Shown: piece after piece, positions 5,573-64,000 of the stretch
How the letters are laid out: each line of letters starts with the position of its first letter
Numbering within the stretch: the stretch's first letter is position 1
DNA from: Sphagnum compactum
Lineage: Eukaryota
Direction of reading: 5' to 3'
Length of the DNA stretch: 64,000 bases
Assembly: GCA_965153455.1 (NCBI GenBank)
Contig: OZ234493.1
Coordinates: 18,280,213 to 18,344,212, forward strand
Made by a program: the position numbers and the translations under genes
Notes under the pieces: model-generated
The model's input: only the letters and a program-made list of their open reading frames with translations
What the model was told of the DNA's origin: nothing
The model's database searches: none

Positions 5573-5948
5573 GAGCATCTCCACCAGTGTTTAGTATGTG
5601 ACTCTAGACAATAAAATTTATTGCAAAAAAGTCAAAATGTGTCAATTTAGCTTAAGAAATTGGTTTTTTTACACCAAATTCATGCAACTTGTTGTGGTTG
5701 GTGAAAGGCTTAACACAATTGTGCACCTTTGAAAAAGAATGCAATAAAGTGGACTTGACTGCAGTTCAATATTTTTGTTTGGTCGAAGATAAATGATTGG
5801 TCTAGGTGGTTTGCTATTAGTAGTCCCCACGTATATGCAGTTCCAGTTACAATTTTATTGGTGAGGTTGCAAAAAAAACAAAAAAACAAAACTTAGACAT
5901 AAAATTTTATTATCCACAATGACATATCAAGCACCGGTGAAAAAGCTT
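5573..5948. mobile_element. PIF/Harbinger-type MITE (GAGCATCTCCA family), degenerate right TIR
   Basis: Left TIR GAGCATCTCCACCAGTGTTTAGTATGTGAC, right end GCACCGGTGAAAAAGCTT, TTA on both flanks. Internal sequence resembles 25541-25918. Confidence 0.6.
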
Positions 5949-8330: not shown

Positions 8331-8744
8331 TTACGGCAAGTTGCTATCCAAATTCTTGAATGAAAACTGAGATTTTGCCTTTCCATATTCATCATCTATA
8401 AAGTATGCAAATTTTTAATGTAATAAAATGACCCTAAATTCCAATCTATTTCAATTTTCAAGGAATTATTAGGTAATTTATAGTATGATGGGTTCTAGTG
8501 GCCACATTTTCGTGTTAAATGATAGTTGGGGTTTTTTAATGGCATATATGGTTTTGACAATTCATATGTTCATATTAGATAGTTATTTGTGAATTGTGCA
8601 ATCTAGATTTCATATGTGTTACATTACAAGAAAAAAATTGATTCATTTTTCTTTAACATAGTTCTAATATACCTTCTACTTTTATGCCCTAAAAGACGAA
8701 AATTTTGTCAAGTTCTTATGACAAAAGAAAATTCTACTTGTCTT

Positions 8745-31728: not shown

Positions 31729-34700
31729 ATGCCGATCGATTACATGGGAGAGGAGCCCAAGGGGAACAAAGGGAAACGGCTCACCATTCTCAGTATTGAT
31801 GGAGGTGGAGTGCGTGGGCTCATACCAGCCACCATTCTGGAGGACCTCGAAGGCAAATTGCAGGTAAAAACCACATTGTGAGGCACTTAGGGGGAAGGGG
31901 GAGGAGCTTTGATTCATCATTGAGACTGTGAACTGTGTGAGGGTCTGCGAAATTTTTTTTCCAACATAAATTGGTAGCTTTCTAGCTGGAGATAAATTGA
32001 AAGCTTCGAGATTGATTTAGGAATGTGGTAAAATTTGGAGGTTGATGCTTCTTGCTGTGTGCAAAAAGAGGAGTAAGTGGGTTGTTGGTAAAGCACACCT
32101 CATGAGATGCATGGGTAGTCCAGAATTCTAAGAAAGAGATGAGAACAATGAATGATTGCGTGCAGAGATTGGATGGGCCGGAGGCAAGGTTGGTGGACTA
32201 CTTTGATCTGGTAGCAGGTACCAGCACAGGGGGTTTGATCACAGCCATGTTAACTGCACCTAAAGATGACAGCAACAAGAAACCTGTCTGTACTGCCAAG
32301 GATGTGGTCCAATTTTACCTATGGTATTCAGCTCAAATCTTCCCTCATACTGGGTACTCTCCTCTCTCCCATTTCCAATATTCCAGTCCTCATCCTATCC
32401 GGACTACACTCATTTGATGCCTTCACTTGTGTACCTTGATCTGTTCTTTACCAAATGAATGTCTACAGCAGCTAGATGATGAGCCCCCTCAGAATTACAG
32501 AGAATATGGTGGCAAGAGTCTAGCCACCCCACCAGCAGTCTTCAACCTTAGCTTCTACAAAGCTTTCAATGTGCCCTTGGGCTCTGAGATATCCCCAAAC
32601 CAGGGACATGGTTGCAGAAAAGAAACCACCTTAGAAACTCCATTTCACCGTCTGAGTGAGTTTGTTTGCACAATCTCTTCAGGCACCCTGTCAGGCAGTA
32701 CCTGACATCTTCACAGGGGGGAACTGGGTTCCATGTTCATTTAGTAGTTGGCAAACATCAAGATCTTCCACATCAAGACCTTCTAGCAAGACATTGTTGA
32801 TTTTTGTAATATGCTGTGTATGGCTTCTTGTGAGTTGGTTGTAACCTTCAAACCTTTACAGCTGTTTCCTCAATCCTGCTTACAAATTCAACTTTCCAGG
32901 AGCAATCTGATGTAAGTAAGTTCTGCAGTCAATACCTGCAGAAAATGTGAAGAAAAGTTCACAGGATGCCCACCAATGTTGAAGGCTGGGGAGTACTAGC
33001 AAGCGAAATCTGAGCCACTAGAGCTGGTGGATTATTGGTAGACATGGAGTGGATACCGAGTCGCTCACTGGACAGGACTGTTTAAGAGAGGGGTGCTCCA
33101 AGTTGTTGGAATGAACTCTTATGGGAAGTTATCAACTCAATTTGTCCCTAGACATGGTGAGAAGAAACAAGTGTCGTGGAGCTGTTTTCAGGAGCTAATT
33201 TGAGTGTGGGCTTGATGATTGTGCAACAGAGGACTATTTAGCGAAAGTCGCCTGAATTTTAAGGCCCTCAATGGCCCTAGATACAAAGGGAGTGGCCTGG
33301 AGAGGATACTAAACAAATACTTTCCAGGCGAGCCACACTTGAGCACAGCTCTCACTTCAGTTATCATTCCAGCTTTTGACACCAAACTGCAGCAGCCTGT
33401 GTTTTTCTCATCATGGAGGGTGTGATCTTGCATCCCAACCCTGTGTCTTTCCTTTCAAGTCTGTATTCTTCTGGTTACTTGTTGATAGTTCTGTGCCCAA
33501 GCACACAATATGACATTGACTGTGAGCTCTTTGGGATGGTAGGTGTGATCCTGTATCCTTGCACTAAAATTTTCAACTGCTTTTGCAGGCGAGACTCGAT
33601 CCTCTAGAAAATGCACAGTTGACGCTGGTATGCCAGGCAACAGCAGCAGCTCCAACATACCTGCCACCAGTGCAGTTCACACTCACAAACTCCAGCACAA
33701 ATGAATCCCGGGACTTCAACTTGATTGATGGAGGTGTTGCTGTCAACAATCCGGTTTGTCTTGCCTTTGCTCAACTGCACTGAGACAAACATTGTTGAAA
33801 CCCTGCAAAGCTGTTGCATTGTAGACCAGAGCACCTTCACCCTCTTCACTTCAATCAAAAGCTTGCTTCTTTCCTTGATGATCATCTTGAGTAGATAGTC
33901 TCTCAATGTCTGTGGCAAAAGGAAATCTGTTTTGCTGAAGGGCAGAGATTGTGTGTGGAAATGACAGACGTATGTGGCCATCACACAAGCAATTAAGGAG
34001 GTGCAATCAGGTGGCAAATCTGCTGGAAGAGTGGCGTATGCGGTTAGTGATTTTGACTCTATTCTTATGTCTGTCTGTAACATCACATCCTGATATGTCT
34101 CAGAAACCCCAGTGCTACTTTTGATAGACAGGAGGTCAGATTCTGCAGCCGTCAGGCAATGTTCTCTTGTTGGTTTTTTGCACCACCAAAAAATGAAAAC
34201 CTTACCCTGAGAATGAAGCTCAGCCATTGCTGTGAGCTGGATTGGGATGGAGGTTTAAGCTCTGTTCTGCAGCCTTATGCCTAGAGCAGAGCAATTTGGT
34301 GCTGGATTCAGCAGCCAACAACTGGTTCCCTTAGGTGTATGCATCATTAAACCTGCAAATGGTTTAAAGAGTTTTTGCAAGAAATGGGAGTGATGTTGAA
34401 TTCTAACCATGTCAAAACCATGAAGAGCGTTTTTGCTCATTGCAGTTTTTTTGCAGTCTCCTACATAGTGGAGCTCTGAATTCTGGTTGGTTAGTTTGGT
34501 GGTCCAACTAAGGTAGTGTATCTGGTGGTTTCAATTGAGTGACACTTTCCCATGGAAAATGTGCAGAATTACAACGATCTATTAGTTCTCTCACTGGGCA
34601 CAGGACAGCAAACAGTAGGGTACACTGCAAAGCAGATATCCAAATGGGGTGTGCGTGACTGGCTCATCAACAAGGGTGATGCCCCACTGGTGGACATGGT

Positions 34701-36432
34701 GTACAACGCAAGTGCTGATATGGTGGACTACAACCTCTCCACCATCTTCCAGTCCCAGAATTGTGGCACCAATTACCTTCGTATCCAGGTACATGGCATG
34801 AAAGCACCAGAGTTGGACAAGGAGTGAAAATACCAATTTCTATTGTCTTCATTTTTCCTTACTGGAAGTGTGGCTATCATTGGCTGTGTAGTCTGTTTAT
34901 GTTCACCTTCAGGGGGTTTCTGACCAGATTTCTGGTCAAAAAGCTCATGAGCTTACAACAAAAAATGTTTGCTCACTGATTAGGGTGGAATTGCCCACAG
35001 TTACAGGTGCTAGAAACTCATTTGGGGTTGTAATTTCAGATGCTCTTTGAAGGAACTTGAAGGAGAGTTGTTTGCAGTTGTATTTCCAATGATGTGCAAT
35101 GTGTTGATTTCAAAATGCAGTCAGAGAATCTGAAGGGACGTGTAGCAGGAGTGGATGAAACCAGCCCAGAGAGTTTACACAGACTGATTAACTTTGCAAA
35201 AGATCTGTTAGATGAGCCTGTCTCGGGGCGGAACTTCCAAACTGGGAAGCTTGCCTCTATCAAAAACGCTGGAACAAACCGAGAAGCCCTTCACAGGTTT
35301 GCTGTCTTACCTCCAGTTCAAGACTCTCAGCAACTACCACCACATATGTGTGTTGTATCCCATTTCTAAGATCTTCAGAACACTGCTTTAAGCATTTCGC
35401 AGGTATCAAGTTCTTGTCATTCATGTCTAAAATATACTTATCAGTTTCCAGTTGTGCAAAAACATTCATTACCTGTGAAGTATGGTATGAGAAGAGCTTT
35501 CTGCAGTTTGACCTGGGAATCGTTAGTACTTGTGGGAGGATTTCAATAAGAGAGTAACAATCTCAGAGCTACCTGTGTTATTGGACAGGTTTGCAGAGTG
35601 GCTCTCAGCAGAGCGTAAAGAGAGATTAGCAGCACTTGCTGCTGCCATACCTACTGAAGAACCTGCCCCAGGGAATGGGGCAAGTGCTGAGGAGGCTCCT
35701 GCTGCTGAGGCTGCCCCAGAAAAGGCACCAAAGACTGAGCAGGCAGATGCAAAGCCCAGTGAAGCGAAAGCATCAGCATATATGGCCTTTCCTCATTCTT
35801 CACAGACATACTTTTATGCTCCCAGTCCGTATTCCACTCCTGTTTCCGAGCAATTAATGTTCAGAGGTTCTTCATTTGAATCTCCCTACTCATACTCAGA
35901 TCCTGTGTATGAATCCTCTACCTGTGATTCCCCGTACTCTTCTTCCTATGCTAAACCCTGTCACCAAGAGTACGATTCGTCATATTCTTCATACCCAAGT
36001 TCTACGTATGAATCATCTTATTCCTCAAATGCAAGACCGTTCTATGAGTCTTCCTATTCCTCATATGCAGATCCCTCTCAAGGATATTCCTCTTCATACT
36101 CTGAGCCAGTGTACGAGTCCTCGTATGCAAGACCTGTGCATGAGTCTTCCTTCCACAAGTCTCTTTCTTACTTTCAACCCAGTTATGAAACCTCATTCAG
36201 AGCTTCTGCGTACGAACAGTCTGCTTATGAGTCCACCGTCAGTACATTCTATGTTCCCCCACCCACATACCACTCTTCTTCCTCATATGAGGATTCGGAG
36301 TATGGGCAACCAGACTGGCACTCAGAGCATTCATACTCTATTCCCTCTACTCCGGCAAGATCAGAATCCTCTTACACCAGCAGCCACCAAATGCCTTCTG
36401 GGCTGCCTGATTTTCTGGGGATTTTCTCTTGA
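31729..36432 (+). CDS. Patatin-like phospholipase A (pPLAII-type) with Ser/Tyr-rich C-terminal extension, 664 aa, 8 exons
   Basis: Exons 31729-31863, 32166-32353, 33230-33419, 33589-33753, 33968-34042, 34567-34788, 35121-35296 and 35589-36432 total 1995 nt in an open frame, all GT-AG. Catalytic motifs are intact: [44 protein letters not shown] and NYLRIQ. Confidence 0.93.
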
Positions 36433-46029: not shown

Positions 46030-48129
46030 TCATGGAGAAAATTGATATAAGTGATTTTGGATGTGAAGGATTGGTTGGAAAGCCTTCAAGCAAAAGCTTG
46101 CTGGTTTCCAGATAATCATTGGGAGTAGAAAGTCTCTCAATATCTGTGACAAAAAGAAAAAGTTAAAACTTTGCTCGAGGATCGATTTTTGTGTGGAAAT
46201 GCCAGACATATGGCAATCATGCAGGCAATTAAGGAGATGCAACCAGGTGGCAAATCCGTTGGAAGAGTGAGACATGTGGTTAGACAATCAATAGTACGAG
46301 ATGACAAATATGCGAACGGTGTTTTATTCCATCATGAACTTTGAAGCATGGAGATTTTTTGTATTAAAGTCTTCTTCTGAGACATGGTGCTGAACTGCAG
46401 CTTGTTCATGGAGAAAATTGATGTGATTTTGAATTGCACAGAGGGTTGGTTGGAAAACCTTGAATGCTTGCTTGTTTCCAGATGATCATCTGGAGTAGAA
46501 AATTTTTCAACATCTGTGGCAAAAAGGAAAAATATGCTGAAGGGTTTTTGTTTGGAAATGGCAGAAATATGTGGCAGTGACAAAGTAATTTTAAGAAGGT
46601 GCAATCAGGTGGCAAATCTGCTGGAAGAGTGACCTATCCAATAAGTGATTTTGACTCTATTCTTATGTCTGTTTGGACGTGCAAGATCTCCTCATGTCAC
46701 AAAACCCCAAGTACCAATCTTATTAGACAGAAGGAGATCATATTCTGCAGTCATCAGGCACTATGCTCTTGATGGTTTTAGCACCACCACACAATGCAAC
46801 CTTACCCTGAGAATGAAGCTCAGTGATTGCAGTGAAGTGGTGGATGACCTGGGGTGGAGATTAAAGCTCTGTTCTGCAGCCTTGTGCCAAAAACAGACAA
46901 TTTGGTGCCAGACTAATTACCAGCAGCCGAGTACTTATTTCCTTGGGATCTGCTATGGCCTATGCATCTTTTAGCTTGCAAATGGATGGAAGGGTGATTG
47001 TAAGTAACGGAGTGAGAGTGATGTTGAATGCTGAAAATGTCAGAACCATTAATGGCACAAGTTGCTCAATGCAGTTTCTTTGCAGTCCACCCTATATTGG
47101 AGCTTTGAATTCCAGTTGCCAAATTGAGGTTGCCTCTAAGGTAGTGCATTTGACAGTTTATGTTTAATGACCCTTTCTCATGGCAGATGTGCAGAATTAG
47201 AACAATATATTGTTGGGCACAGGAGAACAAACAGTAGGATATGACATTGCAAAGAAGATATCCAGATGGGTGTCTGGCTCATCAACAAGGGTGATGCCTA
47301 TATGGTGAACATGGTGTACAAGTGCAGACATAGTGGACTACAACCTCTCCATCATCTTCCAGTCCTAGAGTTGTGGCACAAATTACCTCTGTATCCAGTT
47401 TCACATCATTTAAGCAAAAAAGTTAGAAAGAAACCAAAATTTCAATTTCTTTTGTCTTCATTTTACTTTAGTGGAAGTTTGGGCATCATAAGCTGTGTGC
47501 CTTCATATTTTCCTTTGAGAGCTTTGTTACCAAGTTTTGGTCAAAAGGCCTACAAGCTCAAAACCAAAATTCATCCACTGATTAGGGTGGAATAGCTGAT
47601 GCAGGTTTACAACCTGTAGTTCCTGAGCCTCATAATTCTTGTCCATTGAGGTTTCAATTAAACAGTGATGGTGTCAGAGTTGATGAATCAATTGATGCGC
47701 TTACTACAATGTTGCAAGAGGTTTGAGGTATTTTTCTTCGAGGAATTTCATACAGATTATGTAAATTAATATCAGTGTAAATAGCTCAACAGAACTGTGC
47801 ACAACCCCTTTCAATGCTGAATACTTGGTGCTAGGAACACCTCTGGGGTTGTGATCTTCAGTTTGTCATCTGTGGTTGAGGGAACATTAAGGGGAGTTGC
47901 TTGCAATGGTCTTTCTAGTGACATGCAATGTGTTCATTTTAACTGCAAGTAGTCAATCTAACTTGGAGCATGTAGCCAAGGTGTGTGAAATCAACCCAGA
48001 TGAGTTTGCAGAGATTGATTACTTTGCAATTTATATTTCTTGGGTGAGCCTATCTTCAAGAGCAACTTCCAAATTGGGAAGCTCACCTCTAACAAGTATG
48101 ATGGAACAAATTGAGAAGCCCTTCCCAGT
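46030..48129 (+). pseudogene. Partial intron-containing paralogue of the patatin gene (intron 4 to exon 7), exon 5 tandemly duplicated
   Basis: Nucleotide similarity by eye to 33770-35330 including introns. Exon-5 copies lie at ~46206-46288 and ~46565-46640, an exon-6 relic at ~47196-47398 and an exon-7 relic at ~47950-48128. The sequence continues at 53987-54026 after the MULE insertion. Confidence 0.85.
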
Positions 48130-51100
48130 GGTTGGAGTGAACCAGCAGCCACCAGTGCACCAGTTCAGGATGAGGCTGTTTTGGGGATGAACCAAAAAAC
48201 ACATCCTCTTCCCCTGCCCAGGGATTTTTCGACCCCCTTCTTTGCCCCAAAATTTTCCCCTCCTACCTACCTCCCCCCAATGACCTCCCTCACCTCATTT
48301 CCCGTTCACTCCATCTCCAAAGCTCGGGAGAGCTCCCAAGCTTGAGTAGCACAGAACAGGAGACATGAAACATAGGGCTTGAGGAAGGTGGAGAGCTCAA
48401 CATTGAAGGAAAGTGGAGAGGAGAATGCAAGAGGAGTGCTTCATCCCAAATGTAGAAGCAGGAGAAGAAAGGTAAGCTCCCTCCCTTTGCATTTTTTTTT
48501 TTTCTCTATGCTTTTGTTTTTCTGTATTTTTTTTCTTTTCTTTTGCTTGAGAAGAAGAAGACGCCATCCACTTCTTCTTTTGTTTTTTTGTTTATGTTTG
48601 AAATGAAAAAGGTATTGACACAAGTGTGATGTTGCCTTTTTCTTTTCTTTTGTTTTTTTGTTGCAAACAAGGCAACGACAACAAGCCTAATTTTCCTTCT
48701 TTCTGCTTGAAATGAAAGAGATGATGGCGGCAAGCTTGTTGCCATTGAATTTTTTTTTCTTCTCTTGTTGTTATTGTGAATAAAGTAACAACAACAAGCT
48801 TGCTATCGTCGCCCATTTTTTTTTCTTTTTGCTTGAAGTGAAAATGGGTGACAGCAACAAGCTTGTTGCCATCACCTTTTCTTTTGTTGGTGTTGCTACA
48901 AAGAAGGTGATAGCAATTGTCGTCGCCTTTTTCGAGTGTTTTGTTGCAAAGAAGGTAATGGCTTACTAAACCCTAAACCCTTCTTTCTTTTTTTTTTCTT
49001 TTTTTTTGGTCTTTTTATTGTGAAGAATTGTTAATTGTTCTTTAGAATTGATAATTAACAATGATCTGGTGGTTTTTTTAAATGTTTAAGGTTATAATGG
49101 CTAAAGGAAGGAGACTAAAGAAAGTTGGTGGTGATTTGGAAGCTCAAAAGTAAAATTTTATTTCATTAGAACCGACAATTGGGGACAAAATGTTACTCCA
49201 TCAAAACCAAGAGTTGATGAATCAAGCAATCCATGTGGCTTAGACTTGGCAATGGTGGTTGTTTGCAATTCAAATGATGAGATCCCTTCCAATACAGATC
49301 GGGAATTTTGATTGAAAAGTGGTGGATTAATTTGTATTAGAATCTACATACATTGATCAAATGTAGAAAAAAAATTGTACAAAAAGATTTAAATTTAATT
49401 ATACCTGCACCTTCTATCATTTCATGGACGGTGTGGGATTTGTTTTTCAAAATTTTTTTATTACAATACTTGAAAAAGGTTAAAGTTTGTAATAATTGCA
49501 TTTGATTATGTTTTTTTTTTTTGCAATATTTACATTCTGTTGTGTGATTTTTTTATGTCTAAAGTTTTAAAGTTAAGGTTTTTTAATTACAAAGTAAGGA
49601 CTTATTTATTTTTATATTTTTTGGTTTAGGTCTAGAGTTTGAAAATGACTAGGCCTTTCAACCATTGGCACCCCCTTGTCCATTTAATATAGCTCGGAAG
49701 GATAAAGAATGGATGAAGGTTGGGTCGAAATGGAAATGTAAAGTTAGCACTTGCATTGTTGCATATTTTGTCAAATGGTTGTTGAGTAAGCATTTGGAGG
49801 TGCATGGCTTAGTGGTAAAAAGGCCAAACCTGGGAAGCCTTCAATTTTTGAAAGAGGTCCTTGACATCAAGACCATGCTAAAATGAACATTCGCCCATCT
49901 TGGGAAATGCCATGGCCATGTAAGAGCAAAATGATCAAAAGGTTGTTAATTGCATTTGTGCCAAAGCCTAATGTGAGTGGGATAAAATGGTAATTGTTGT
50001 AGAATAATGTCCACCATTACCAAAACCAACTTTGGTCAAATTAACTTCAAAACAAATGTTGTAAGTGTTGGGTCTTAATGCTTAGGGCATGGGAAGCGTG
50101 CCTTGAAATGCAACATCACTAATGGAGAAGGACGAAAATTTACAAAAGATGACTCAATCCATCCGTTAAACATATGCATGATGATTGAAAATGGCATGGG
50201 ATGTCAAAAATTGGGATCAAGAGTCCACTAAAGCAAGTCGAACCCAAAAGTTGACAATTGTATTGAATTTCCATGAATCTAAAATGATTCATGGAAAATA
50301 TAAAAAAATAATAATCAATATTTGTTGTTTTTTTATAATTTTGTTTTATCCAAGGTGTGTTAAGGTTTAATTTGGTGGTTTTTGGGTGTTTATAGGGTTT
50401 AGGGCAAAATAAAGGAGGAGTTTGTTACAAATGCAATTCATGTTGAAATGTAGTGCCAACATTTTAACATTCCTTGTCATGTAGTAAGGGCTACAAATGC
50501 GACAACTGCTTACGAAGTTAAACACGACATATCACACGACAATGATATGGTTTTAGGTTTGCATTTTATATAGTTAGTCAATTCATTTTTTGGACTACCC
50601 ACTTTTTGAACTTTGGTCCTTTGATATATTATAGAGAACCTTTTTTTTCCATTGGGTTTTTTAGCATTTTTGATTCACCCATTTTTTTACATCTTTTATC
50701 AATATAATATTTTCTTCTAGTCACACTTCTTTGATGGTATATGGTTAATCATATATGTTTTTTTTTTTATCATCTTCTTAGTGCTTTAGATGTAATAATC
50801 AAATTTAAATAGTCCCATATGCACATTTTATAATTAATTTGTGTGAGGTTTACAAATATCAAAATGGACATAGTGCAATACCTACGTTTAGTGTATTATG
50901 ATTCACATCACTTAAAGATTTTTAAAACAGTACCCACATTCTAATTAGTTTATTGGCATTGTCATGAAACCAAACATGCAATACCTACATCCTTTTTATT
51001 CTAACTCCCATAACGCCATTTCAAATATGCAATACTTGCATATAGGTCTCATAAATAGTTGTTGGTTTTTTACATCTATTGCAATATTCGCATATAGGTC

Positions 51101-53986
51101 TCCATTGGAATATTTATGGGATTCATATGATTGAATAATTTAGTCTAAGTATCAACAAATAATGTCACAATTAATGAATTACCAAAAAAATATTTCAAAT
51201 AATGTAAATGATTAATTATCATATTTAAATAATCATTTATTTCTTAATATTAATTAATTGATTATTTGGTTGAACCTTAATTATTCAGATAATTAAAATT
51301 TAGATTTAAAAATCAAATTGATATTTTGATATTTAATTTATTATCTTAATTAAATTTTTTATGTTGATAAGTTATTCAAATCATTATTTTAGATAATGAT
51401 TCATGATAATTAATTTTCATAAAATTAATTTAGGTATATAAAAAGACATATTTTGGGTACCCAAACCACTTATTGGTTATTTGAAATGACCTTACATGTG
51501 GGTATTGCATTTAGGGTTGACCTTTCATTTAAGGCTGATTAAATTACTTATGGATTTTTTGATTATTTCGAAATGAACTTGCATTTAGGTATTGCATATA
51601 GGCCTTAGTTTTCATTCAAAGGACACCCAAACTACATATTGGTTATTTTGAAATGACCCTACATGTGGATATTGCGTTTAAGGTTGGGTCTGCAACTCAG
51701 GTTACTTAAATCACCTATGGGTTATATTGAAATGAATTTGAATATGGGTATTACATTTAGGGCTACGTATTCATATAATTTTATAATACCTGCACACATA
51801 TTTATTTTCATCAATTACAAATTTGGCTTTAATTTTTTGAATAATTAAATAAAATTTGTAACAAAACACAAAAGAAGGTATGTCTTTTACCATTTGGTCA
51901 TATTTCCAAGCTGAGTTCTTTCACTTAAAAAAGAAAGAAATATAATGACATTGCATTGTTTTACATATGTTTAAGCCCTAAAAATTCTGCCAAAAATGCA
52001 TCGTAGATTTATTTTAATTATTATAGAATTGTAAAAAAAATGTTAATTAATTTATGTGTCCCAACCTCTAAACCTAAACCATAATTCTAACATCAAATAA
52101 TAAATTTTACATTAAACCCTAACCCTTTGTACCATCAATGTGACCAATTTTTCATTATGTTTATTTTTATATATGTTAGATCATACTATTAGGTGAACAA
52201 ATAATTTTGAAAACATGAATCTCATGATGGATTGGTGGGGAATCAAATATTTAAAAAATATTTTTATGTTTCATGGTTAATGAATTATCACAATATGATA
52301 CGAATATTGCATTTAAATTAAAGAGGGTTAAGAAATATTGAACTTTAACAATTATGGAACATATGGGAACAAAGGAGATTCATAATTGTGGTATAGATCT
52401 AAACAAGTGATAGGATCAAAAACTAATACAATGAGCAAAGTCTAGAGTATAAACCTTAAGCTTTGATATGTATGAACCGAATTCTTAAACATTAAATCAT
52501 AAGGCATAACCTTAAAAATCGAAATGATATTTTTCCATAAGCAATATTACAACTTTAACTATACAAACCCTAACAAAAAAAAGTCTTAGTGACATATGCC
52601 CTAAACCCAAAAAATTATGCAAAACATACAAATTATATAATGTAAAACATTTTTTTTAAAATTAGAAAATAAATTTTAAAGCTTTTAAACTACAAAGATT
52701 TGCCGACTAAAAAAAAACCTTAATTTTAAAAAACAATCAAATAAATTTCGTAAAAAACCAGAAGAGAAATTATGTTTGTTACCTTTGTGTGATCTCTCCA
52801 AGCTAATTTTTTTCCACTTTATTTGAAGAAGATATAGAATGAAATTATATTATTTCACCTATGTCCAAACCCTAAAAAATTTCCCCCAAATTTAGTTTAG
52901 TTTAGGTTAATTACTATAAATTTGTGAAAAACTTGCTAACTAATTTATGTGTTCCAACCTTAAACTTAAACCATAATTTAATAATACATACTTATAATAA
53001 TTACATGAAAAGACGTATTATAATGTCCATTCCATAAATAAATTAGGTAAAGAAAATTTTGTAAAGTATGAATTAATTAAACCAAAATGGTTGCAATTAT
53101 GACATTGTTTCCATTATAAATTGTTTATAATACCTACATATGGGGACCTATGTTCATCATCCATGAACTAGGGCAAACCTTAATAAATTGATAAATAGGA
53201 TTAAGGGGGGGTGGAAAAAGTGAATAAGTAATTAAGTAGGTATTTGGCAATGTAAAAAACATAGGTAGGTAAGTAAACGTAGTGGTAGGTAGGAAAGTGG
53301 GTGCATAGGTAGGTAAATAGGTATATAGGTAGGTAGTTGGGTTGGTAGGTAAGTTAATAAAGTAAAAAAGAATTTCAAGAAACAAGGTAAATAGGTTACT
53401 AAGGTAGGTAGGCATGTAGGTAGGCAAGTTAGTAGGTAGGAAAAAAATTATTCTAGCAATGTAGCGAGGTAGATAAATTAGTATATAGGAAACAAAATAC
53501 CTTATCAAGGTGGCTAAGTTTGTAGAATATTTATGTCAATAGGGTGGTTGTGTATATAGGGTTGTTAAATAGTAAGGTAGCTAGGTTAATAAGGTACGTG
53601 TTAGTACAATGGTTAGGTCAGTAGGGAAGCTAAATCAATAGGGTATGTAGTCAACAGGGTAGCTAGGTTAGGAGGGTAGGTAGTTAATATAATAGTTAGG
53701 TTAGTAAGATAACTAGTTATTAAGGTAGTTATGTCAGTAGGGGATAATTAATAAGGTACCAAGGTTGATGGAGTACTTATGAGAGTAGGAAAATGAATAG
53801 GGTAACTATGTGTGAGGTCAAGTTTAAGAAAAAACAATAAAAAACAAACCCCCCAAAAAAAAACATTGGTCAGCAACGAAAATAAATGGACTGTGATGAA
53901 CCTCATATGGTGTCAAATGGAAAAATGCAGCCCATCTAGTGAACAGAATGGCCAATTGATGCATTGGTGGTTGAACCATTCTGCCC
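48130..53986. mobile_element. Internally deleted (transposase-less) MULE element with 9-bp TSD
   Basis: Termini GGTTGGAGTGAACCAGCAGCCACCAGTGCACCAGTT ... AATTGATGCATTGGTGGTTGAACCATTCTGCCC. Perfect TSD CTTCCCAGT at 48121-48129 and 53987-53995. Removing the element rejoins the patatin pseudogene sequence. Confidence 0.85.
49097..50290 (+). pseudogene. Decayed MULE accessory ORF (C2H2 zinc-finger protein), copy in element 1
   Basis: KDKEWMKVGSKWKCKVSTCIVAYFVKWLLSKHL-EVHGLV..KMAWDVKNWDQESTKASRTQKLT is homologous to the minus-strand ORFs at 62930-63600; stops and frameshifts present. Confidence 0.65.
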
Positions 53987-56214
53987 CTTCCCAGTGGTGT
54001 TGTCTTGCCACCAATTCAAGACTCAGTATAATAGGCCAGAGTGAACCAGCAGCCACCAATGCACTAGTTGGTCGTTTTGTCCACTAGATGAGTTGTGTTT
54101 TTTCATTCTGCGCCGGATGGGGTTCATCACAGTCCATTTCTTTTTGTTGCTGACCACTGTATTTATTTATTTATTTATTTATTTTGTTCTTAGCCTTTTT
54201 TCCCTTGGACCTAACCTCACACATAGCTACCCTGTTCACTTTCCTACCCTCATAAGTATTGCACCAACCTTGGTACCTTATTTATTATCCCCTATTGACA
54301 CAACTACCCTAATAATTAGTTATCCTGTTGACCTAGCTACTATATTAACCACCTACCCTACTAACCTAGCTACCCTATTAATTACATACCTTACCAACTT
54401 AACCACTATATTAACTACCTACCCTATTGACCTAGCTACCCTACATACACAACCACCCTATTGACATAAGTATTTTACAAACCTAGTCACCTTGATAAGG
54501 TAACTTGTTTCTTATGTACTAACTTGCCTATCTACCTAACTACCTATTTATCTATGTTTTTTACATAACCAAATACCTAATTAACTACCTACTCACTTTT
54601 TCCACCCCACCCCCCCCTCAATCCTACCTATCAATTTATTAAAGTTTGCCCACATGTAAGTATGATAAACAATTTATAGTGGAAACAATGCCATAATTGC
54701 ATCCATTTTGGTTTAGTTAATGCATATTTTACTAAATTTTGTTTACCTAATTTATTATTGAATGGACATTATAATATTTCTTTTCATGTAATTATTATAA
54801 GTATGTACTATTGGATTATGGTTTAGGTTTAGGGTTGAGACACATAAATTAGTTAATAAATGTTTCACAAATGTATAGTAATTAATCTAAAGTAGGCTAA
54901 ATTTGGGGGGAAATTTTTAGGGTTTACACATATGTGAAGTAATACGATTACATTCTATATCTTCTTAAAAAAGAGTGGGAAAAATTAGCTTGGAGATATC
55001 ACACAAAGGTAAAAGACATATCTTCTCTTTTGGTTTTGTACAAAATTTATTTGATTGTTTTCAAAGATTAACATATTTTCTTTCAATCATTAAATATTTA
55101 TAATATAAAACCTTTAAATTTTTGTTTCCAAATTTTTTCCTATGTTCTTTTAAATTTGTTTATTTTGCATTATATAATTTGTATAGTTTGTATAGTTTTT
55201 TGGGTTTAGAACATATATCACTAAGACTTTTTTTGTTAGGGTTTGTATAGTTAGGGTTGTAATAAGGCTTATGGCACAATATCATTTGGATTTCTAGGAT
55301 TATGCTTTATGATTTAGTGTATAGAAATTTGGTTCATATATTTCAAAACCTAAGGTTTATACTTTAAATTTTGCTCATTGTATTGGTTTTTGATCTTATC
55401 ACTTGTTTATATCTATACCATAATTATGAATCTCCTTTGTTTCCATATGTTCCATAGTTGTTAGAGTTTAATATTTTCTAACCCATTTTTGTACGAGTTA
55501 TGATTTTTTAAGGTTGTTTTCAATTAGGATTATAAACTTTGGTGGAACATTGTCATCTTTTATTCCTAAAGGTATGCATTTGTCTCTTGTTACTTCTTTT
55601 GTTGTTTTATTTATATTTTCATAATTCAACCTATTTTCATTTCATAGTTATTGGATATAAAAAGGGCGTCAAATTTCATTAAGTATACAACCATAAATAA
55701 AGGTTTTATACCTTTACATGGATATTTCATATTCAATATCTCTTTTTAGTTTATTTTTTCATACCCATATGTGAATAATGCATTGACTCCCCACAACCAG
55801 CGTGGGTTTTATGGCTGAAGGCAGGTATTGCATTTTGCACCTCTCAAACAATGTGCATTAATTATCATTATGTGGGTATTGCTACATGGGGTTTTTAGAC
55901 ATTGTGAGTTTAAGGTACAATCCGGGTATTGCATATGTGAACATTTTCAATGATGGAAGGTTTAATAGCTCAATTTGGGTATTCCCAAAGTTTTTTTTAG
56001 TATATGGGTTCATAATGCAAGTATTGTATGTTATGTACATTGTAAAAATAGGTATTTTATATCATGATATGGGTATTGTAATGGGAATTCCAAGTCACAA
56101 CATTGATTTTAAAGGAGCCATGTATGGATTGCATTTTGGGTTTTTGTTCAATGACGAATGTTTATAAAATTATAAATTCTCTTGGTGCAAGAATTTGTCC
56201 TACTTCCTTCAATC

Positions 56215-58897
56215 ATGAAAAGTGTTCTAAAATCTCATTCCATTCATGTCCAAAACCCCACCAAGTCCCCTTTCTCAAACAAAGTGTTGGTGTGGACGTC
56301 CGGGATACACCATGGAGGGCAAAATAAAGTGATCATTCAATTTGCTTACGTTCCATATGCTCACATCTCAGAATTCTTGGAAGGTGAACAAGGGGATACG
56401 AGCACCCCTATGGAATGGAATGTTTACAAAAACTTTCCAAGCCAAACGGATGTCAAGCAACCAACTATCAAAAACCACTTCGGGCATACATGGTAAATAT
56501 TTATGGCATTAACCTTTTTAATTTCTTTAATTCATATACCAAAGATGTAATCCTTTACGTTTTGAAAGTTTTTTGGTCTGGGTATCAATGTGGATATGGA
56601 CCAGAGGACTATCGGGAAAACTCAACCCACACTCGATCTATTAAACGAGGATGCCTAGCGTCATTCTCAATCAAATGTCTATACACACGACCTGATGTGG
56701 CTGAGATCACAATTTATCATAAAGCGCATACATGAATTGATGGGTCATTCGCACATGGTGAGCATGACCCAGAATCCATTTCTCGTATGTTTCGTTATGC
56801 TCCATGCATGTCATAAGCATTGAAGGACCACATATGGGCCCAACTAAGCTTAGGTTAACAACCAAACAAATATATGACAAGCATAAAACAATTTGGTGGG
56901 AAGGTGTGAATGCGGGTCAAAGCATGACACGAGATGATTTCATTCGGCTTTAACACATTGCATATTTGGATCAGAAACATAAAAAAGGGAGTTGGCATTT
57001 ACACACCAACCCTGTAATTTCAATTCGGTTTTGGGCTCTCCAACATCCGGAAGATGTGTTCTTTTCCAAGATGTTGGTGAAATCAATGGGACTGAAGTCC
57101 CATTCACCATAGGTATTCAAACACCAACTCAATGTGAGTCCATGCTATCATATGGTCACAATGCTGCCATTTCTATGTATGCCACATTTCGCACAAATGA
57201 CATGAATTCCATCTATTCACCTTGATGGGGTTTGATGATCATCGCACGGGTGTCCCTTGAGCTTGGATCATTACAAGTAGGCAAACAGTTCAGGATTTGA
57301 TCAAATGGTTAAAACCATTAAAAGAGAAGATGTTATCACACATGCCACATTGGAAACCATCATGTTTTTTTGTTGATGATGCACTTCAAGAATTGAAGGC
57401 AATACGGTTAGTTCTGTACTTAGTACCTACTTTGTGTTTATTTCCTTAAATGTTTTTTAATATATTTCATAATTACTTCAAATGCATTTTATGTTGTACT
57501 AACCCCATCCACTCATGGAGATTTTATTGCATATGTGTCCTTATTAGGGTCGTATGGGGTATGGACAAGGTTCCCATCTACCTTTGTTGTCGGCATGTTC
57601 TCAAAGCATGGCACTTACGTGGTACTGAAAAAATCAAAGATGTGGAAGTGTGAGGTGGAATCCTTTAAGACCTTCATGATGTGATCTACATGTCCATCAA
57701 TCATGGAGAAACAATTGATGACTTCAAAGAGCATGGGAGGGTTGCTGTGAGATAAAACCTTCATAAACATAGGCCTGGTGATGGGTGGACAAATTATTTC
57801 TGGACTTATTACCATCAGTTTAGTAAGTGATAATATTTATCATGGTTTAGTAATCAAAATTATTTTATATAATGTTATTCATCCTTATGTATTATGTTTA
57901 TGTTTGCAAAATTATGGATGGTGGGTGTTCGAAGAGTGCCCCATTCCAACCAAGACACCTAAGCGAGCATTGAATCATATCATGGTGCGTTGAAATGTTG
58001 GCTTGTTCTTAACACAAAAGGCCTTAGAAGGCGTAGGATTGATTAGTTGGTGTGGCGATTAACAACAACCATTGCACGCCATTACATGCACACATTGGAA
58101 ATGAAAAAAAGGGGTTTCATAAAAAACAAGGTTATGGAGGCGATTATTACACGAAGTGTGGAAAAGGCAGCCCTTATTCCACTCACCCATGTGAACCAAC
58201 CAACCCTTGAGAGTGATGGAGCTTGGGGCGTACAAAGCCAACACCTTCCCAATGTTATTTATGTGGTGAAATCCCATTCACCGAAATATTTTGTTGCACA
58301 TGTGAATGGGCATTGCGAAAGAACATGTGTAAACACCAAATTGTGGTCATACTCACATGCATAGACATTTCTCAAGAGGATATCATTCATTACTGTGGAA
58401 CATGGTATGGATCACATCATGGAGGGTTGGGTCACATGTTTGTGGACCCACGACATATTCCAGATGATATGGAGTCCAATGATGATGATGAAGATGAACA
58501 TCTTGAAGGTGATGATGGGATCATGGAATTTGATGGGCTCATGAACATGGAGCAAAATGATCTCCCTATGGGTGTCATTGTAGGGTTTAATGACACAATA
58601 AATTCATCGACCCCAATGGAAAGGGCTCTTACACAATTGGTCACTATAGTGCAAGAGATCACAAATGAATGTAAAGAAGGCGATGTGACACTTTGTGAAC
58701 ATGCCACCTCACACCTGAGAGTATTGGCATGTAATATTCGTAACATACGCCTCACAAAGGCAAATGCAATTTCACACCCAAGATTGGTGTTACACCGCGT
58801 AGAAGGTGGATTGGGAAATAGTGTCAAACGGCTCAAAGATTGGCATGAAACAATGTTCAATCACACAAATGTACGTACTAAACAATGTCACGAATAA
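56215..58897 (+). pseudogene. MULE DDE transposase with C-terminal SWIM zinc finger, intron-containing, decayed
   Basis: Motifs in order: IHVQNP, CGYGPEDY..KRGCLASFSIK (WRKY/GCM-like Zn domain), PFTIGIQT, ISMYATF (first D mutated to Y), GVPxAWII, FFVDD, LCCRHVLKAW (CxxH), NQDTxASIESYHGALK (E) and CTCEWALRKNMCKH (SWIM). Intron-like gaps at ~56493-56580, ~57407-57547 and ~57822-57910; stops and frameshifts present. Confidence 0.85.
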
Positions 58898-59119
58898 ATG
58901 TCTCAATTACTAATCAAGATTATTGCCATTGGCACTAAGAATTTTGCTTTATAATCAATTTTGTATGGAGGAAACCATAGCCCAAATTCTTTGAACATCA
59001 TGTATTCAACACACACATGAAGTTTAATATGGCACAAAGGTTATTATCGTTTCCCAGTAATAAGCACAAAAAGTGTGAAATGCAAAAACACAAGAATAAT
59101 GATAATATTAGTGTTAAAT

Positions 59120-59600
59120 GTAGGTATTGTAACTAGGCCCCAAAATCCCAGTTGGTAAATGTAAGTACAAGTGCAAGTATTGCAATGATGCCCCAAAATT
59201 CCAGTTGGTAAAGATAAGTACGGGTGTAGGTATTGCAATGAAACCCCAAAATTCCAGTTGGTGAGGTAAGTCCGAGTATTACAAGTTTAAATGAAAAATC
59301 AAGCCTAAATGCAATACCCATCTAAATGGTTTAGATACCTTTAAGTGAAGACCTAGTCCTAAACACAATATCCGCATGCAAAGTCACTTTGAAATAACCT
59401 AACCCTATATGCAATACTTGCATTCAAGGTCACTCCGAAAGTACGCATGTGGGGTTTAAGCTTTCTTTAAATGAAGATCCTACCCTAAATGCAATACCTG
59501 CATTTTGGGTCACTTCGAAAGTACGCATGTGGGGTTTAAGCCTTTTTAAATGAAGATCCTACCCTAAATGCAATACCTACATTTTGGGTCACTCCAAAAT
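59120..59600. repeat. 53-bp and ~80-bp tandem minisatellites built around RGTATTGCA/TGCAATACY
   Basis: CCCCAAAAT(C/T)CCAGTTGGT..GTATTGCA units (motif at 59123, 59176, 59229) and AAATGCAATACC..GGTCACT..GAAAGTACGCATGTGGGG units (59410, 59490, 59569). Confidence 0.85.
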
Positions 59601-62019
59601 AATTAGTTAATTTCAAAATAATATGCTAACAAAGGTGTGTATAGAGGTTGGGGTTGTTGATTAGGAGTTCCATGATTTTTACTTTGTTTCATGAATTTGA
59701 AAAGAGGTTGTATCGTTTGTGGAACAAATAGTACAATGACAATTGTCATGAAAAAGTTGAACTTATAATCTATAACATGGAATAATTACCTTAATTAATG
59801 ATTTCAATAACTTATTAAAACAAAATTATACTTAAGTTAATCAATCAAATATCAAATTAATTAATCTGATTTTTAGATCCAACTTTTTATTATCCAAATA
59901 AATAAAGTTACGCCAAATGATTAGTTAATTATTTTAAATAATAATGATTATTTAATTCTTGATAATTAATAATTTAAATTATCTGAAATATCGGTCTATT
60001 AATTATTTAATTATATGACAAAATTTATTGATAATTCATTAATTATCAGAAATATTTCATATTAAATTGGGGGGAAATTTTTAAGGTTTAGACATATGTG
60101 AAACAATACAATTTCATTCTATATCTTCTTCAAAGAGATTGGGAAAATTAGGTTAGAGTTGTCACACAAACGTAAGAAGCAAACCTTATGTGAAAACCCA
60201 ACCCTAAATGCAATACAAAGTTTGTCAAGATCAAAAAAAAAAGTTCAAGCTTAAAATTTCTTCGAATATGTTCATGTTTTTTTTTCCCCTTTTAAAGTTG
60301 TAAACTCATTTCAAGAAACATAAATATAAAGTTTCTAATTTAATAAAATTTTAAACTATGTTTTTAAAAAAATCAAAGCACATGATTTTCAATTTTTTTT
60401 TGTTTGTTTTACATAATAATAAAAATGATCTCTCCCATATATTAATCCTATGTTTGATTGAAATTTTATTTTATACTTTTCTGATATATAGTAAATAATT
60501 TCTTGGTTAAAATAATCATATAGCGGGTCAAAAATATTTTATATTTTATACATATATAACACACATCCTTATGTGAATTTTATTTTTTATGATGTATAAT
60601 ATTGGTTTAAATATTGGTCCAAATATATTGTTATTTATAACACAAATATATAAATAATGATATTATGGAATTATATTGTTGATTCATTTCAATACATATA
60701 TTTTCATATTTATTTAAAATAAAAATTATATATATATATAAACCTATGGTTACGTATATTGCAATTGTTCTTAATGAATTTTGTTTTTAATGCGAATTTC
60801 AAAATTTCAAAAGATTAATAGCTAGGTATGAAAATGTTCATAAGCTCTTAGACGCCATGCTAGAGTTTGTGTGGATTTTAAAAGCTTTGTGAAGGCCAAG
60901 TTATGTAATGTTTTCGACACCTTTAGAAGCTGAAACATGACTCGACTATCCAAAAAACACAATAGTGTTCATAAAAAAACAACCAAGAATCTATAGCCTT
61001 GACAAATTACTAATTTCAACAAAAGCTCATTGCCAAGGTTATCAAATTGACTAAAGTGTTGACATTAACCAAACTAAACAACTTAGCCTAAACATGAGTA
61101 ATAGGTTAGTAAGTTATTTGTTAAGTAATCTAATTAACTACCTAATAGGCTACCTACGCAATATAGGCCTATTATGTAGTTTGTTCATTAGTGTAGGCCT
61201 TCTAGGTTAATATCTTAGATGGTCTATGTAGGTATTGAAGGTGGTTGAGTTTATTAAGTAAACATATTAGTTATATAAGTAGTTTACTAGCCTAGGCCAC
61301 ATAAGCCTAATAAGCGTTTATGATAGTTTAAAGTCTAATCCTTATTATGTTATAACATATTAAATTTGAATTAAAAAAATTTAAAAAAACACATTTTTCC
61401 ATATAATTGTTATAAGTATATATTATTGGAATATGATTCTAATTTAGAGCTTGGGAAACCCTAAATTAATTAACATTTATTTACAAGTCCATAGTAAATA
61501 AAATAAATCTAAGGTGAATTTTAAGGGGAATTTTATATGCAAAACAATGTAATATATATTTTTAAAGAAAGTGAAAAAGATCAGCTTGGAGATATTAACA
61601 AATGGTAAGAGACATACCTTCTTTTGTGTTTTGTTACAAATTTTATTTAGTTATTAAAAAAATTTAAGGCTAAATTTGTAATTGTTGAAAGTAAGTATGT
61701 GTGTGGATATTGCAAAATTATGAAACCTTAACCCTAAATGCAATAGCTATATTCAAGTTCATTTCAAAATAACCCATAAGTGAATAAAGTAAAACCTGTA
61801 ATGAAAGGGCAACCTTAAATGCAATACCCACATGTAAGGTCGCTTTGAAATACTCAATATGTAGTTTGGGTGCGCCTCTGAATGAAGACCAAAGCCTAGA
61901 TGCAATACCCACATGTAACATCATTTCAAAATAGTTAATAAGTGGTATGGGTATCTAAAATATGTTTTTTTATATACTTAAATTAATTATTATTTTGAAT
62001 TAATTTTATGACAAACTAC

Positions 62020-62235
62020 AAGTTTTGCAATGAATGTACAAAACAAGCAACTATTATGGGACCTATATGTAGGTATTGCAAGGAATGTAAAAAACCAGCG
62101 ACTATTATGGGACCAATATGTGAGTATTGTAAGGAATGTAAAAAACTAGCAATTACTATGGGACCCATATGTGGGTATTGCAATGAATGTAAAATGCCAG
62201 CGACTATTATGGGACCCATATGCAGGTATTGCATA
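62020..62235. repeat. 51-bp tandem minisatellite (~4 units)
   Basis: GTATTGCAA.GAATGTAAAAA..CAGC.ACTATTATGGGACC.ATATGT units, with the motif at 62072, 62123, 62174 and 62225. Confidence 0.9.
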
Positions 62236-62929
62236 TTTGAAAATGGCGTTATGGAATTTATAATAGAAAATGATGTAGGTATTATATTTTCAAGATGTGT
62301 GTATTGTTTTAAAAGTCTAATGTGAGTCCTATTACATTAGATGTAAGTATTGCACAATATTCATTTTAATCTTTGTAGACCTTAGACAAATTAATGTTAC
62401 TTATTCATATGGGCCTATTTAAGGTTTGATTCTTACATCTCAAGTACTAAGAAAATTATGACAAAGAAGACATATATGATTAATCATATACCGATCAAAC
62501 AAATGTGACTAAAAGATAATATAATATTGATAAAAGATGTACAAAAATGGGTGGATGAAAAATTACCAAAGAACCCAATGAAAAAAAAAGGTTTTTTATA
62601 ACACACCAAAGGACCAAAGTTCAAAAATTGGGTAATCCAAAAAATAAAAGGGTTGAAAAACGTAGCTAACTATATAAAGTGAAACCCTAAACCATATCAG
62701 TATTTATAATCCTATGTTTAGCTTGGTAAGCAACTACTGCATTTGTAGCCTTTACTGCATAACGAGCAATGTAGAAATGGCAGCATTGCATTTCAGCCTG
62801 AATTGCATTTGCAACAAATTTTTCTTTTGTTTTGTCCTAAACCCTAACACACCTTGGATGAAATAAAATTATAAAAAAAACAAGAAACATTGATTATTAT
62901 TGTTTTTTTGCCTTCCATGAATCATTCTA

Positions 62930-63990
62930 GATTCATGAAAATCTAATACATTTGTCAACTGTTTTGTCCGATTTGCTTTACTGGACTTTTGATCCCAATT
63001 TTTGACATCCCATGCCATCTTCAATTATCGTGCATATGCACAACAGGTGGATCGAATCACCTCTTATAAATCTTCATCCTTCCCCATTCGTGATGTTGCA
63101 TCTCGAGGCACATTGTCCACGCCCCAAGCATTGAGACCCAACACTTGCAACTGTTGTTCTGAAGCTAATTTGATCAAAGCTGGTTTTGGGAATGGTGGAC
63201 ATTGTTTTGCAATAGCTACCAGGTTATCCCACTTATGTTGTGCTTTGGCACGAGCGTGACTAGCAACCTTTTGATCATTCCACCTTTGCATGGCCATGGC
63301 ATTTCCCAAGATGCGAGCATTCATTTTAGCATGGTCTTGATATCGAGGACTTCCTTCAAAAGTTGAAGGCCTCTTAGGTTTGGCCTTTTCTGCCACCAAG
63401 CCATGCACCTCCTTCAAATGCTTGGTCTACAACCATTTGGCAAAATATGTGACAATGCAAGTGCCAACTTTACACTTCCATTTCAACCCAACCTTCGTCC
63501 ATTCTTTGTCCTTCTGAGCCAAATTAGGTGGACAAGGGGGTGGTAGTGGCTGAGAAGCCTGGTCGGTTTCAAATTTCGGACCTAAACCAAAAAATATCAA
63601 GAAATAAATCAATATTTTGTAATAAAAAAATCCTAACCCTAAAACCTTACACATAAAGAGTTCAAAAAATAGAATGCAGGTATTACAAAACATAAAATCA
63701 CACAATCACATACTATTCTTGTAAACTTTAATTGTTTTCAGGTATTGCAATAAAAAAAAATTTAACAAAAAAAATCCCGCACCTTCCAACAAATGATGGA
63801 AGGTGCAGATACAATTAAACTTCAAAAAACTTGTACAATTTCTTTTATATGCATTTAATCTAATGTCCATAAATTTAAGAAAAATCTATATTATAAATTG
63901 TCATCCTTGTCAACTCTAATCCACATAGGTTGTTTGATACATCAATTTTCAATTTTCATTTCTAATGAAATAACATTCTGCTCCTCAGGT
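62930..63990 (-). pseudogene. MULE accessory ORF, C2H2 zinc-finger protein, convergent with the transposase
   Basis: A near-continuous frame over 62930-63582 reads WKCKVGTCIVTYFAKWL*TKHLKEVHGLV (Cx4Cx12Hx4H)..MNARILGNAMA..WDNLVAIAKQCPPFPKP..LGLNAWGV..LKMAWDVKNWD with a few in-frame stops. The upstream exon(s) extend to the window edge. Confidence 0.7.
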
Positions 63991-64000
63991 ATTAATTATG

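What the first reader, a model, noticed from the sequence alone, without database searches (positions are those of the whole stretch)
50870..62360. Phased arrays of an RGTATTGCA motif in the MULE non-coding DNA: candidate VANC-like anti-silencing system
Seen: roughly 30 exact or near copies (counted by eye) of RGTATTGCA/TGCAATACY cluster in non-coding parts of both elements. Spacing is ~51-53 bp (55824, 55875, 55925, 55978; 59123, 59176, 59229; 62072, 62123, 62174, 62225; 50977, 51028, 51080) or ~80 bp (51501, 51588, 51668, 51747; 59410, 59490, 59569; 61739, 61820, 61901). Upstream of the transposase the motif and spacing persist while the spacers are unrelated, suggesting selection on the motif itself. 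Elsewhere different minisatellites have amplified the same motif. Known: Arabidopsis VANDAL MULEs encode VANC proteins that bind short motifs (VANC21: YAGTATTAY) accumulated by tandem repetition in non-coding TE regions, causing sequence-specific demethylation. Inference: this element's C2H2 accessory protein, or the transposase, binds these arrays, giving an independent anti-silencing or transpososome-scaffolding system in a probable bryophyte.
Basis: partly seen in the sequence, partly recalled or inferred. Interest (0 to 1): 0.8.

Follow-up and report, generated by a model that had tools for sequence, protein, structure and literature searches.

The report
Moss transposon's conserved docking-site arrays
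A large family of peat-moss jumping genes keeps the same 14-letter DNA word, often spaced about 52 letters apart, in many unrelated repeats, and one letter of the word differs between two branches of the family, which suggests a docking site for a protein the element itself makes, possibly to resist silencing, though binding is untested.

Summary
Observation confirmed: 33 near-copies of a 14-mer, ATG[CT][AG]GGTATTGCA, lie in 50870-62360 (3 in the 48 kb outside the elements). They sit in two broken Sphagnum Mutator elements, each with 9-bp target duplications. The full element has a transposase and a convergent, purifying-selected, single-C2H2 gene (ORF2) with no VANC domain match.

Genome-wide there are 1,254 motif pairs at 49-54 bp. 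The word persists across clades with 49-64% transposase identity, in 78 dissimilar flank types. Six bases not used to pick sites are conserved too. One base switches by clade: purine in 41 of 47 unit types in one branch, pyrimidine in 42 of 46 in the other. This favours an element-encoded binder, but it is a single evolutionary event shared by ORF2 and transposase.

Sites lie in introns and intergenic DNA, not at the ends, which argues against an end scaffold. Against anti-silencing: there is no hypomethylation footprint, the motif barely diverges between families (unlike VANC), and an ORF2-less lineage keeps a looser cluster.

Verdict: VANC-like layout, not a VANC member; binder and function untested. 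The scan noted these arrays before on other DNA of this genome.

The parts
48130..53986 (-). Element 1: 5.9-kb transposase-less derivative (ORF2 remnant plus arrays), inverted relative to element 2; target duplication CTTCCCAGT at 48121-48129 and 53987-53995
49110..50545 (+). ORF2 remnant of element 1 (stops and frameshifts); limits approximate
50874..51093 (-). Motif array, about 51-bp spacing (50874, 50977, 51028, 51080)
51496..51755 (+). Motif array, about 80-bp spacing (4 sites)
54034..64000 (+). Element 2: Mutator element of 14.87 kb, ending 4,906 bp beyond the window; about 45-bp imperfect inverted ends; target duplication AGTATAATA at 54025-54033 and after the right end
55570..56188 (+). 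5' intron of the transposase transcript (GT..AG joint in RNA contigs of 2 of 4 runs, laid on a related copy)
55819..56133 (+). Decayed motif array inside that intron (6 sites at up to 2 mismatches; 50-53-bp steps)
56189..58897 (+). MULE transposase pseudogene (PF10551 over cut-off in sister copies; weak SWIM hit); introns about 56492-56580 and 57822-57908
59118..59237 (+). 53-bp minisatellite, 3 motif sites
59310..59582 (-). 80-bp minisatellite, 4 motif sites, motif adjacent to TTTAGGG
61701..61914 (-). Diverged 80-bp array (61739, 61820, 61901 on minus; one plus site at 61701)
62016..62354 (+). 51-bp minisatellite with 5 sites plus a site at 62341
62690..64000 (-). ORF2 pseudogene, convergent with the transposase. 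Main exon about 62911-63582: one C2H2 finger, GRPST motif, 44-residue helix, helical domain. First exon with short peptide repeats continues beyond the window
63674..63749 (+). Two motif sites in the inferred ORF2 intron upstream of the main exon
   Evidence: the intron is inferred from sequence, not shown by reads

Best explanation
The arrays are selected, multimeric binding sites for the element's own accessory protein ORF2, acting as a sequence-specific regulator in trans. ORF2 would read the 14-bp word through its single C2H2 finger plus the adjacent GRP tail, bind cooperatively at about 52-bp spacing in introns and intergenic DNA, and keep active copies transcribable: a VANC- or TnpA-like activator or anti-silencer reached with an unrelated protein. 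Tandem duplication makes new arrays and selection keeps word and spacing while spacers decay. Shown: word, spacing, location, deep conservation, the clade-specific base, purifying selection on ORF2 and sense transcription over it. Inferred: protein binding, ORF2 as the binder, and any chromatin effect.
For: (1) Across 78 flank clusters, positions not used to pick sites are conserved: A 0.82, T 0.81, G 0.71 at -6 to -4; purine 0.95 at -2; G 0.68 at -1. (2) 10 of 10 hand-picked loci with this transposase clade hold 4-23 exact cores per 10 kb. 9 of 10 other MULE-domain loci hold 0-1, and the tenth (9 cores) carries two ORF2 copies. (3) 7 of 10 dissimilar array loci have an ORF2 homolog in the fetched 16-20 kb, against 0 of 13 control stretches of 8 kb. 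(4) The base at -3 is purine in 41 of 47 unit clusters of the clade whose finger helix reads K-Y and pyrimidine in 42 of 46 of the K-W/K-S clades. Per-locus majority is 20 of 20 against 15 of 16 with one tie; single-linkage clustering gives 27/33 against 25/29. One host factor would not easily give this. (5) 38 of 126 spacer clusters are 49-55 bp; this class is seen in all four clade groups. (6) 0 of 41 sites fall in transposase exons of the C13 copy, and sites avoid the ends. (7) ORF2 dN/dS is 0.14-0.20 between subfamilies; its tree splits the clades as the transposase tree does, and it evolves faster. (8) C2H2 match: Pfam zf-C2H2 in 7 of 50 homologs; TFIIIA E 2.8e-4. (9) Sense-strand polyA reads over both genes in 1 raw-read run.
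Against: The -3 switch is one phylogenetic event and ORF2 and transposase share it, so it cannot tell them apart. At the loosest clustering (0.47) units merge and the test is empty. A dispersed lineage without ORF2 between transposase and right end still has 6-11 looser sites per 1.1 kb. CG and CHG transitions are 0.080/0.082 in array spacers against 0.072/0.083 in the ORF2 exon, so there is no hypomethylation footprint. Among close copies the motif is not significantly better kept than spacers once CHH context is matched (5/29 against 46/177, p 0.36), nor in the ORF2-less lineage (p 0.47). A single finger with a hydrophobic helix (A-K-W-L) is an atypical DNA reader (own knowledge). The core word is invariant across families, whereas VANC targets differ between families.
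Confidence: 0.38

Rival explanations
1. The transposase's own N-terminal DNA-binding domain reads the arrays, for self-activation or loading; ORF2 does something else.
For: The motif tracks this transposase clade in 10 of 10 loci, 6 of which showed no ORF2 in the DNA fetched. The ORF2-less lineage keeps a cluster. The -3 switch also follows the transposase tree. AtMu1 transposase alone activates and hypomethylates its copies (bioRxiv 10.64898/2026.08.24.746577, section 7).
Against: The conserved terminal word differs from the motif and arrays avoid the ends, whereas AtMu1 transposase peaks at its inverted repeats. Four of the six ORF2-negative loci are truncated or interrupted relatives of ORF2-bearing clades. 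Sites in the ORF2-less lineage are looser and mixed at -3.
Confidence: 0.27
2. A host protein (transcription or chromatin factor) binds the word and the elements have accumulated its site, alongside telobox-like TTTAGGG.
For: Invariance of the core across clades of 49-64% transposase identity is what a fixed host reader would impose. Telobox-like words are also enriched in some copies: 3.4-3.6 per kb in C1b, C13, C17 against 0.32 in controls.
Against: Clade-specific base at -3 across dissimilar units. The genome-wide excess of about 5,000-7,500 words is of the size that some 550 ORF2-bearing loci would supply (my estimate). No cluster in 13 control stretches.
Confidence: 0.15
3. ORF2 binds the arrays but as a transposition cofactor (MURB- or TnpA-like looping, packaging or integration help), not as an anti-silencer.
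For: Convergent two-gene layout as in MuDR (layout recalled; mudrB described as needed for integration in PMC6446971 passages). Fixed spacing near five helical turns suits a structural scaffold. No methylation footprint.
Against: Arrays are asymmetric, internal and intronic, and lie next to the transposase transcript start, as regulatory sites do.
Confidence: 0.13
4. Neutral: the word is a by-product of minisatellite turnover or a slippage seed, inherited from one ancestral repeat.
For: Most sites are in tandem repeats. There is no significant short-range excess conservation.
Against: The 14 bases and about 52-bp spacing persist while flanks fall to near-chance similarity in 78 clusters and several clades; sites are excluded from exons.
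Confidence: 0.07

Closest known systems
Arabidopsis VANDAL21/VANC21 and VANDAL6/VANC6 (Hosaka et al. 2017, PMC5735166)
   Same: Mutator element without long inverted repeats, with an accessory gene. A short word sits in same-orientation, high-density tandem arrays in introns, intergenic and upstream non-coding DNA. Sub-family-specific one-base variants exist (C- and T-type there, R/Y at -3 here). The accessory protein evolves faster than the transposase and has a variable region with peptide repeats.
   Different: ORF2 is a single-C2H2 protein with no DUF1985 or DUF287 Pfam match; VANC is described as MAIN-derived and dicot-specific (PMC13547354 passages). The word is 14 bp and nearly invariant over deep clades. 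There is a preferred 52-bp spacing. Binding and demethylation are not shown.
Spm/CACTA TnpA and AtMu1 transposase as sequence-specific activators (bioRxiv 10.64898/2026.08.24.746577)
   Same: An element-encoded protein binds clustered motifs and activates related copies in trans; motif density matters.
   Different: Those sites are at the termini; here they are internal. TnpA is transposase-derived and belongs to another superfamily.
Maize MuDR (mudrA + mudrB) and yeast Mutyl mutB (PMC6446971 passages)
   Same: Two-gene Mutator with an accessory gene; 8-11-bp target duplication class.
   Different: Ends here are about 45-bp imperfect repeats. The passages read describe no internal motif arrays. 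ORF2 was not compared directly with MURB or MutB.

Membership tests
Mutator/MULE superfamily | MULE DDE transposase domain | tested here: met
   PF10551 over cut-off in sister copies, e.g. C13:6035076 and C5:4714589; weak SWIM hit in the window copy, E 0.68, under cut-off
Mutator/MULE superfamily | 8-11-bp target site duplication | tested here: met
   9-10 bp in both window elements and 4 of 4 other copies with both ends fetched
VANDAL/VANC system | Accessory protein with DUF1985/DUF287 (VANC, MAIN-related) domains | tested here: not met
   No such Pfam family among the 17 hit by 50 ORF2 homologs at E<=0.5; zf-C2H2 in 7. Only the main exon and first exon were scanned; no direct profile comparison with VANC.
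VANDAL/VANC system | [quoted passage not shown] | tested here: met
   465 of 549 neighbouring pairs are in the same orientation; 0 of 41 sites in transposase exons
VANDAL/VANC system | Motifs accumulate by tandem repeat formation with gain and loss between copies | tested here: met
VANDAL/VANC system | Target motif differs between related families with the protein | tested here: inconclusive
   Core invariant; one base switches once, with both genes
VANDAL/VANC system | Accessory protein binds the motif | not testable with these tools
   needs EMSA, DAP-seq or ChIP
VANDAL/VANC system | [quoted passage not shown] | not testable with these tools
   Indirect mutational footprint absent in mostly dead copies; not a test of active copies
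Subterminal-repeat transpososome scaffold (CACTA/hAT type, recalled) | Repeats clustered near both ends | tested here: not met
   First 14-mer site 372-1,781 bp from the left end; 0-1 sites in the last 3 kb of 5 full-length elements

The most novel reading that the evidence does not exclude
Peat-moss Mutator elements evolved, independently of the dicot VANC system, a sequence-specific anti-silencing module built from a single-C2H2 protein and 52-bp-spaced arrays. Unlike VANC, one reader specificity is shared by a whole superfamily of several hundred copies, so one active ORF2 could wake many families at once; a one-base motif switch tracks a Trp-to-Tyr change in the finger helix.
Probability: 0.28. 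Interest if true: 0.8.

Novelty: new variant of a known kind. Interest (0 to 1): 0.55.

Why it matters
Among the papers read, sequence-specific transposon anti-silencing is shown only in flowering plants (VANC, TnpA, AtMu1). A moss case with an unrelated protein would show convergent origin and give a small, one-finger candidate for targeted epigenome work. The natural R/Y switch gives a ready specificity test: two ORF2 types and two transposase types against two probe types identify the binder in one experiment.

Tried and rejected
- Tenfold genome-wide enrichment from the reversed control: rejected as a CpG artefact; Markov expectation gives 1.5-1.9-fold.
- General helical phasing: apart from the 49-55 and 100-106 classes, a 10.4-10.5-bp period is weak (p 0.03-0.07, 73 clusters), other periods score as well, and the 79-81-bp unit is off phase.
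- An apparent motif-versus-spacer effect at C positions (p 0.005) vanished when matched for CHH context.
- One search used mis-oriented loci and was discarded.
- Fold searches of ORF2 gave nothing clear: no Foldseek E<=0.001; best Z 5.8 and 6.4, generic helices. This does not exclude any family.
- Homodimer prediction gave no verdict.
- ESM Atlas hits were all under 0.9.
- Distant ORF2-like proteins (24-29% identity) could not be placed in DNA context: the metagenome scan with P0262 found none.
- Two of ten array loci (C1:19.08 Mb, C1:10.70 Mb) showed no link to the family.
- Literature: searches listed no paper on this element or word. Sasaki 2022 (EMBO J) and Tanaka 2026 (VANC21 structure) were not held; no supplements were read.

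Full report
Observation. Exact RGTATTGCA or its reverse occurs 21 times in the window, 20 of them in 50870-62360. Allowing two mismatches to ATG[CT][AG]GGTATTGCA gives 39 sites: 33 in the finding, 36 in the two elements, 3 in the first 48 kb, and 4 in 104 kb of control DNA. Genome-wide, GTATTGCA pairs number 1,254 at 49-54 bp and 1,420 at 55-84 bp, against 6 and 4 for the reversed control. That control is CpG-biased. The single word is only 1.5-1.9-fold over Markov expectation (15,620 against about 8,000-10,400). From the control density (6 cores in 104 kb) I estimate fewer than ten chance pairs at 49-54 bp, so the pair excess stands.

Anatomy. The genome is 382 Mb, and named homologs are from Sphagnum. 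Element 1 (48130-53986) is an inverted, transposase-less derivative. Element 2 starts at 54034 and ends 4.9 kb past the window. Each has a 9-bp target duplication and about 45-bp imperfect inverted ends, as do 4 other copies with both ends fetched. The transposase is a MULE; its nearest longer relatives found are a Ceratodon and a Dillenia protein at 34-36%. RNA contigs from 2 of 4 runs, laid on a related copy, show three GT..AG joints. The first places the 'upstream' array inside a 5' intron of the transposase transcript. Stranded polyA reads (130 reads from about 12% of one run, mostly 90-95% alike) lie in sense over both genes; no ORF2 splice joint was among those listed. Both window copies are broken.

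ORF2. It has 542-550 first-look candidates in the genome, many with an open 241-245-codon main exon. It holds one C2H2 finger, a conserved GRPST stretch (AT-hook likeness is recalled, not tested), a 44-residue helix and a helical domain. dN/dS is 0.14-0.20 in the 6 pairs between the C17 type and the others, and 0.3-1.5 among the 15 closer pairs. No VANC domain matched.

The word belongs to the superfamily, not to one repeat. Of 20 loci picked by hand from 139 MULE-domain matches, 10 carry this transposase clade and hold 4-23 exact cores per 10 kb. Nine others hold 0-1; the last holds 9 and contains two ORF2 copies. Of 10 array loci chosen for unlike units, 7 have an ORF2 homolog (28-64% identical) nearby, 1 is a truncated left arm, and 2 are unexplained. 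GTATTGCA is in the top 150 enriched 8-mers of 6 of 6 clade groups. Clustering 313 array sites by flanks gave 78 types. Bases outside the selecting core are conserved across them, giving ATG-H-R-G-GTATTGCA-W. This is the strongest non-circular evidence of selection. Spacing of 49-55 bp is found in 38 of 126 spacer types and in all four clade groups; a wider helical periodicity is not established. A metagenome locus (L158) shows the same word at 51-bp steps beside an ORF2 relative.

A clade-specific base. Transposase and ORF2 trees agree on the split between the window and c9 clades and the c5x and a1646 clades; ORF2 diverges faster (36-44% against 49-64%). In the second group the finger helix reads K-Y instead of K-W, and position -3 is a purine in 41 of 47 unit clusters, against a pyrimidine in 42 of 46 in the first group plus the K-S clade (duplicate loci L128, L131 and 13 repeats among L137-L152 left out). 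Other positions gave p 0.006-0.7, so nominal p values are inflated. Per locus the majority is 20 of 20 against 15 of 16. The effect survives single-linkage clustering at 0.55 and 0.50 but is untestable at 0.47, where units merge. It is one evolutionary switch. It argues for an element-encoded reader and cannot separate ORF2 from transposase.

Evidence against. A dispersed lineage (more than ten collinear places) runs from transposase through a motif cluster to its right end with no ORF2. Its sites are looser and mixed at -3, and are not better kept than spacers among 4 old copies. This fits transposase or host binding, ORF2 in trans, or decay after ORF2 loss. CG and CHG transitions are about eightfold over AT transitions in the arrays and about equal to those in the ORF2 exon, so these copies were methylated throughout (28 copies); silent VANDALs would look the same, so this is weak. 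Among those close copies the motif is not significantly better conserved than spacers once context is matched.

Mechanism. Most likely ORF2 binds the arrays cooperatively and acts as a trans activator or anti-silencer (0.38). Rivals are transposase binding (0.27), a host reader (0.15), ORF2 as a transposition cofactor (0.13), and neutral turnover (0.07). An end scaffold is disfavoured because the sites avoid both ends.

Comparison. It works like VANDAL/VANC in layout but is not a member: the protein test fails and function is untested. Papers seen: PMC5735166, parts 1-3 of 6 (abstract, results, discussion); bioRxiv 10.64898/2026.08.24.746577, abstract, first part of the main text and section 7; passages of PMC10398659, PMC6446971 and PMC13547354. 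Sasaki 2022 and Tanaka 2026 were seen only as reference entries; they, and unread supplements, may hold VANC spacing or range data that bear on the comparison. Searches listed no paper on this element or word, but most subscription papers and Repbase-type catalogues are not covered. Earlier notes of this scan describe the same two-gene element and 14-base arrays on other DNA of this genome. The short texts shown do not mention the deep-clade invariance, the -3 switch, the intronic placement or the ORF2-less lineage.

Verdict. A real, selected feature and a new variant of a known kind, with a sharp bench test available. Interest 0.55.

Noticed in passing
L001 ~360-1190 (just beyond the window, inside element 2): About 820-bp insertion upstream of ORF2 that also occurs inside transposase copies at two other loci; looks like a solo LTR or small mobile element.
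   Followed up: no
window 53100-53973 and 54034-55484: Left arms of the two elements face each other 47 bp apart, forming a large imperfect inverted repeat, with GGTA/TACC-rich simple repeats that recur in several clades.
   Followed up: partly
elements C1b, C13, C17 (L008-L010, L005-L007, L014-L016): Telobox-like AAACCCTA at 3.4-3.6 per kb against 0.32 in controls; in the 80-bp unit it abuts the motif. Only 0.4-0.85 per kb in the window's elements.
   Followed up: partly
L021 814-1068; window just beyond 64000: ORF2's first exon has tandem acidic 11-residue repeats whose number and sequence vary between subfamilies, recalling the variable repeats described for VANC.
   Followed up: no
L060 / G000:C1:19083865 and L068 / G000:C1:10701991: 49-bp and 55-bp minisatellites containing GTATTGCA with no transposase or ORF2 within 8 kb.
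   Followed up: partly
L075, L078 and more than ten other places: Transposase-only lineage whose right end resembles other clades' left ends, with variant words such as GGTAATGCA.
   Followed up: partly
proteins P0242, P0262, P0264: Distant ORF2-like proteins (24-29% identity) keeping the finger, GRP and WG motifs, from unnamed short contigs; the family may extend beyond Sphagnum.
   Followed up: partly
P0286: The transposase core is 34% identical to an angiosperm SWIM-type protein, a possible domesticated relative.
   Followed up: no
window 33849-35296 and 46030-48128: Local gene-like duplication at 73-77% identity, just left of element 1.
   Followed up: no
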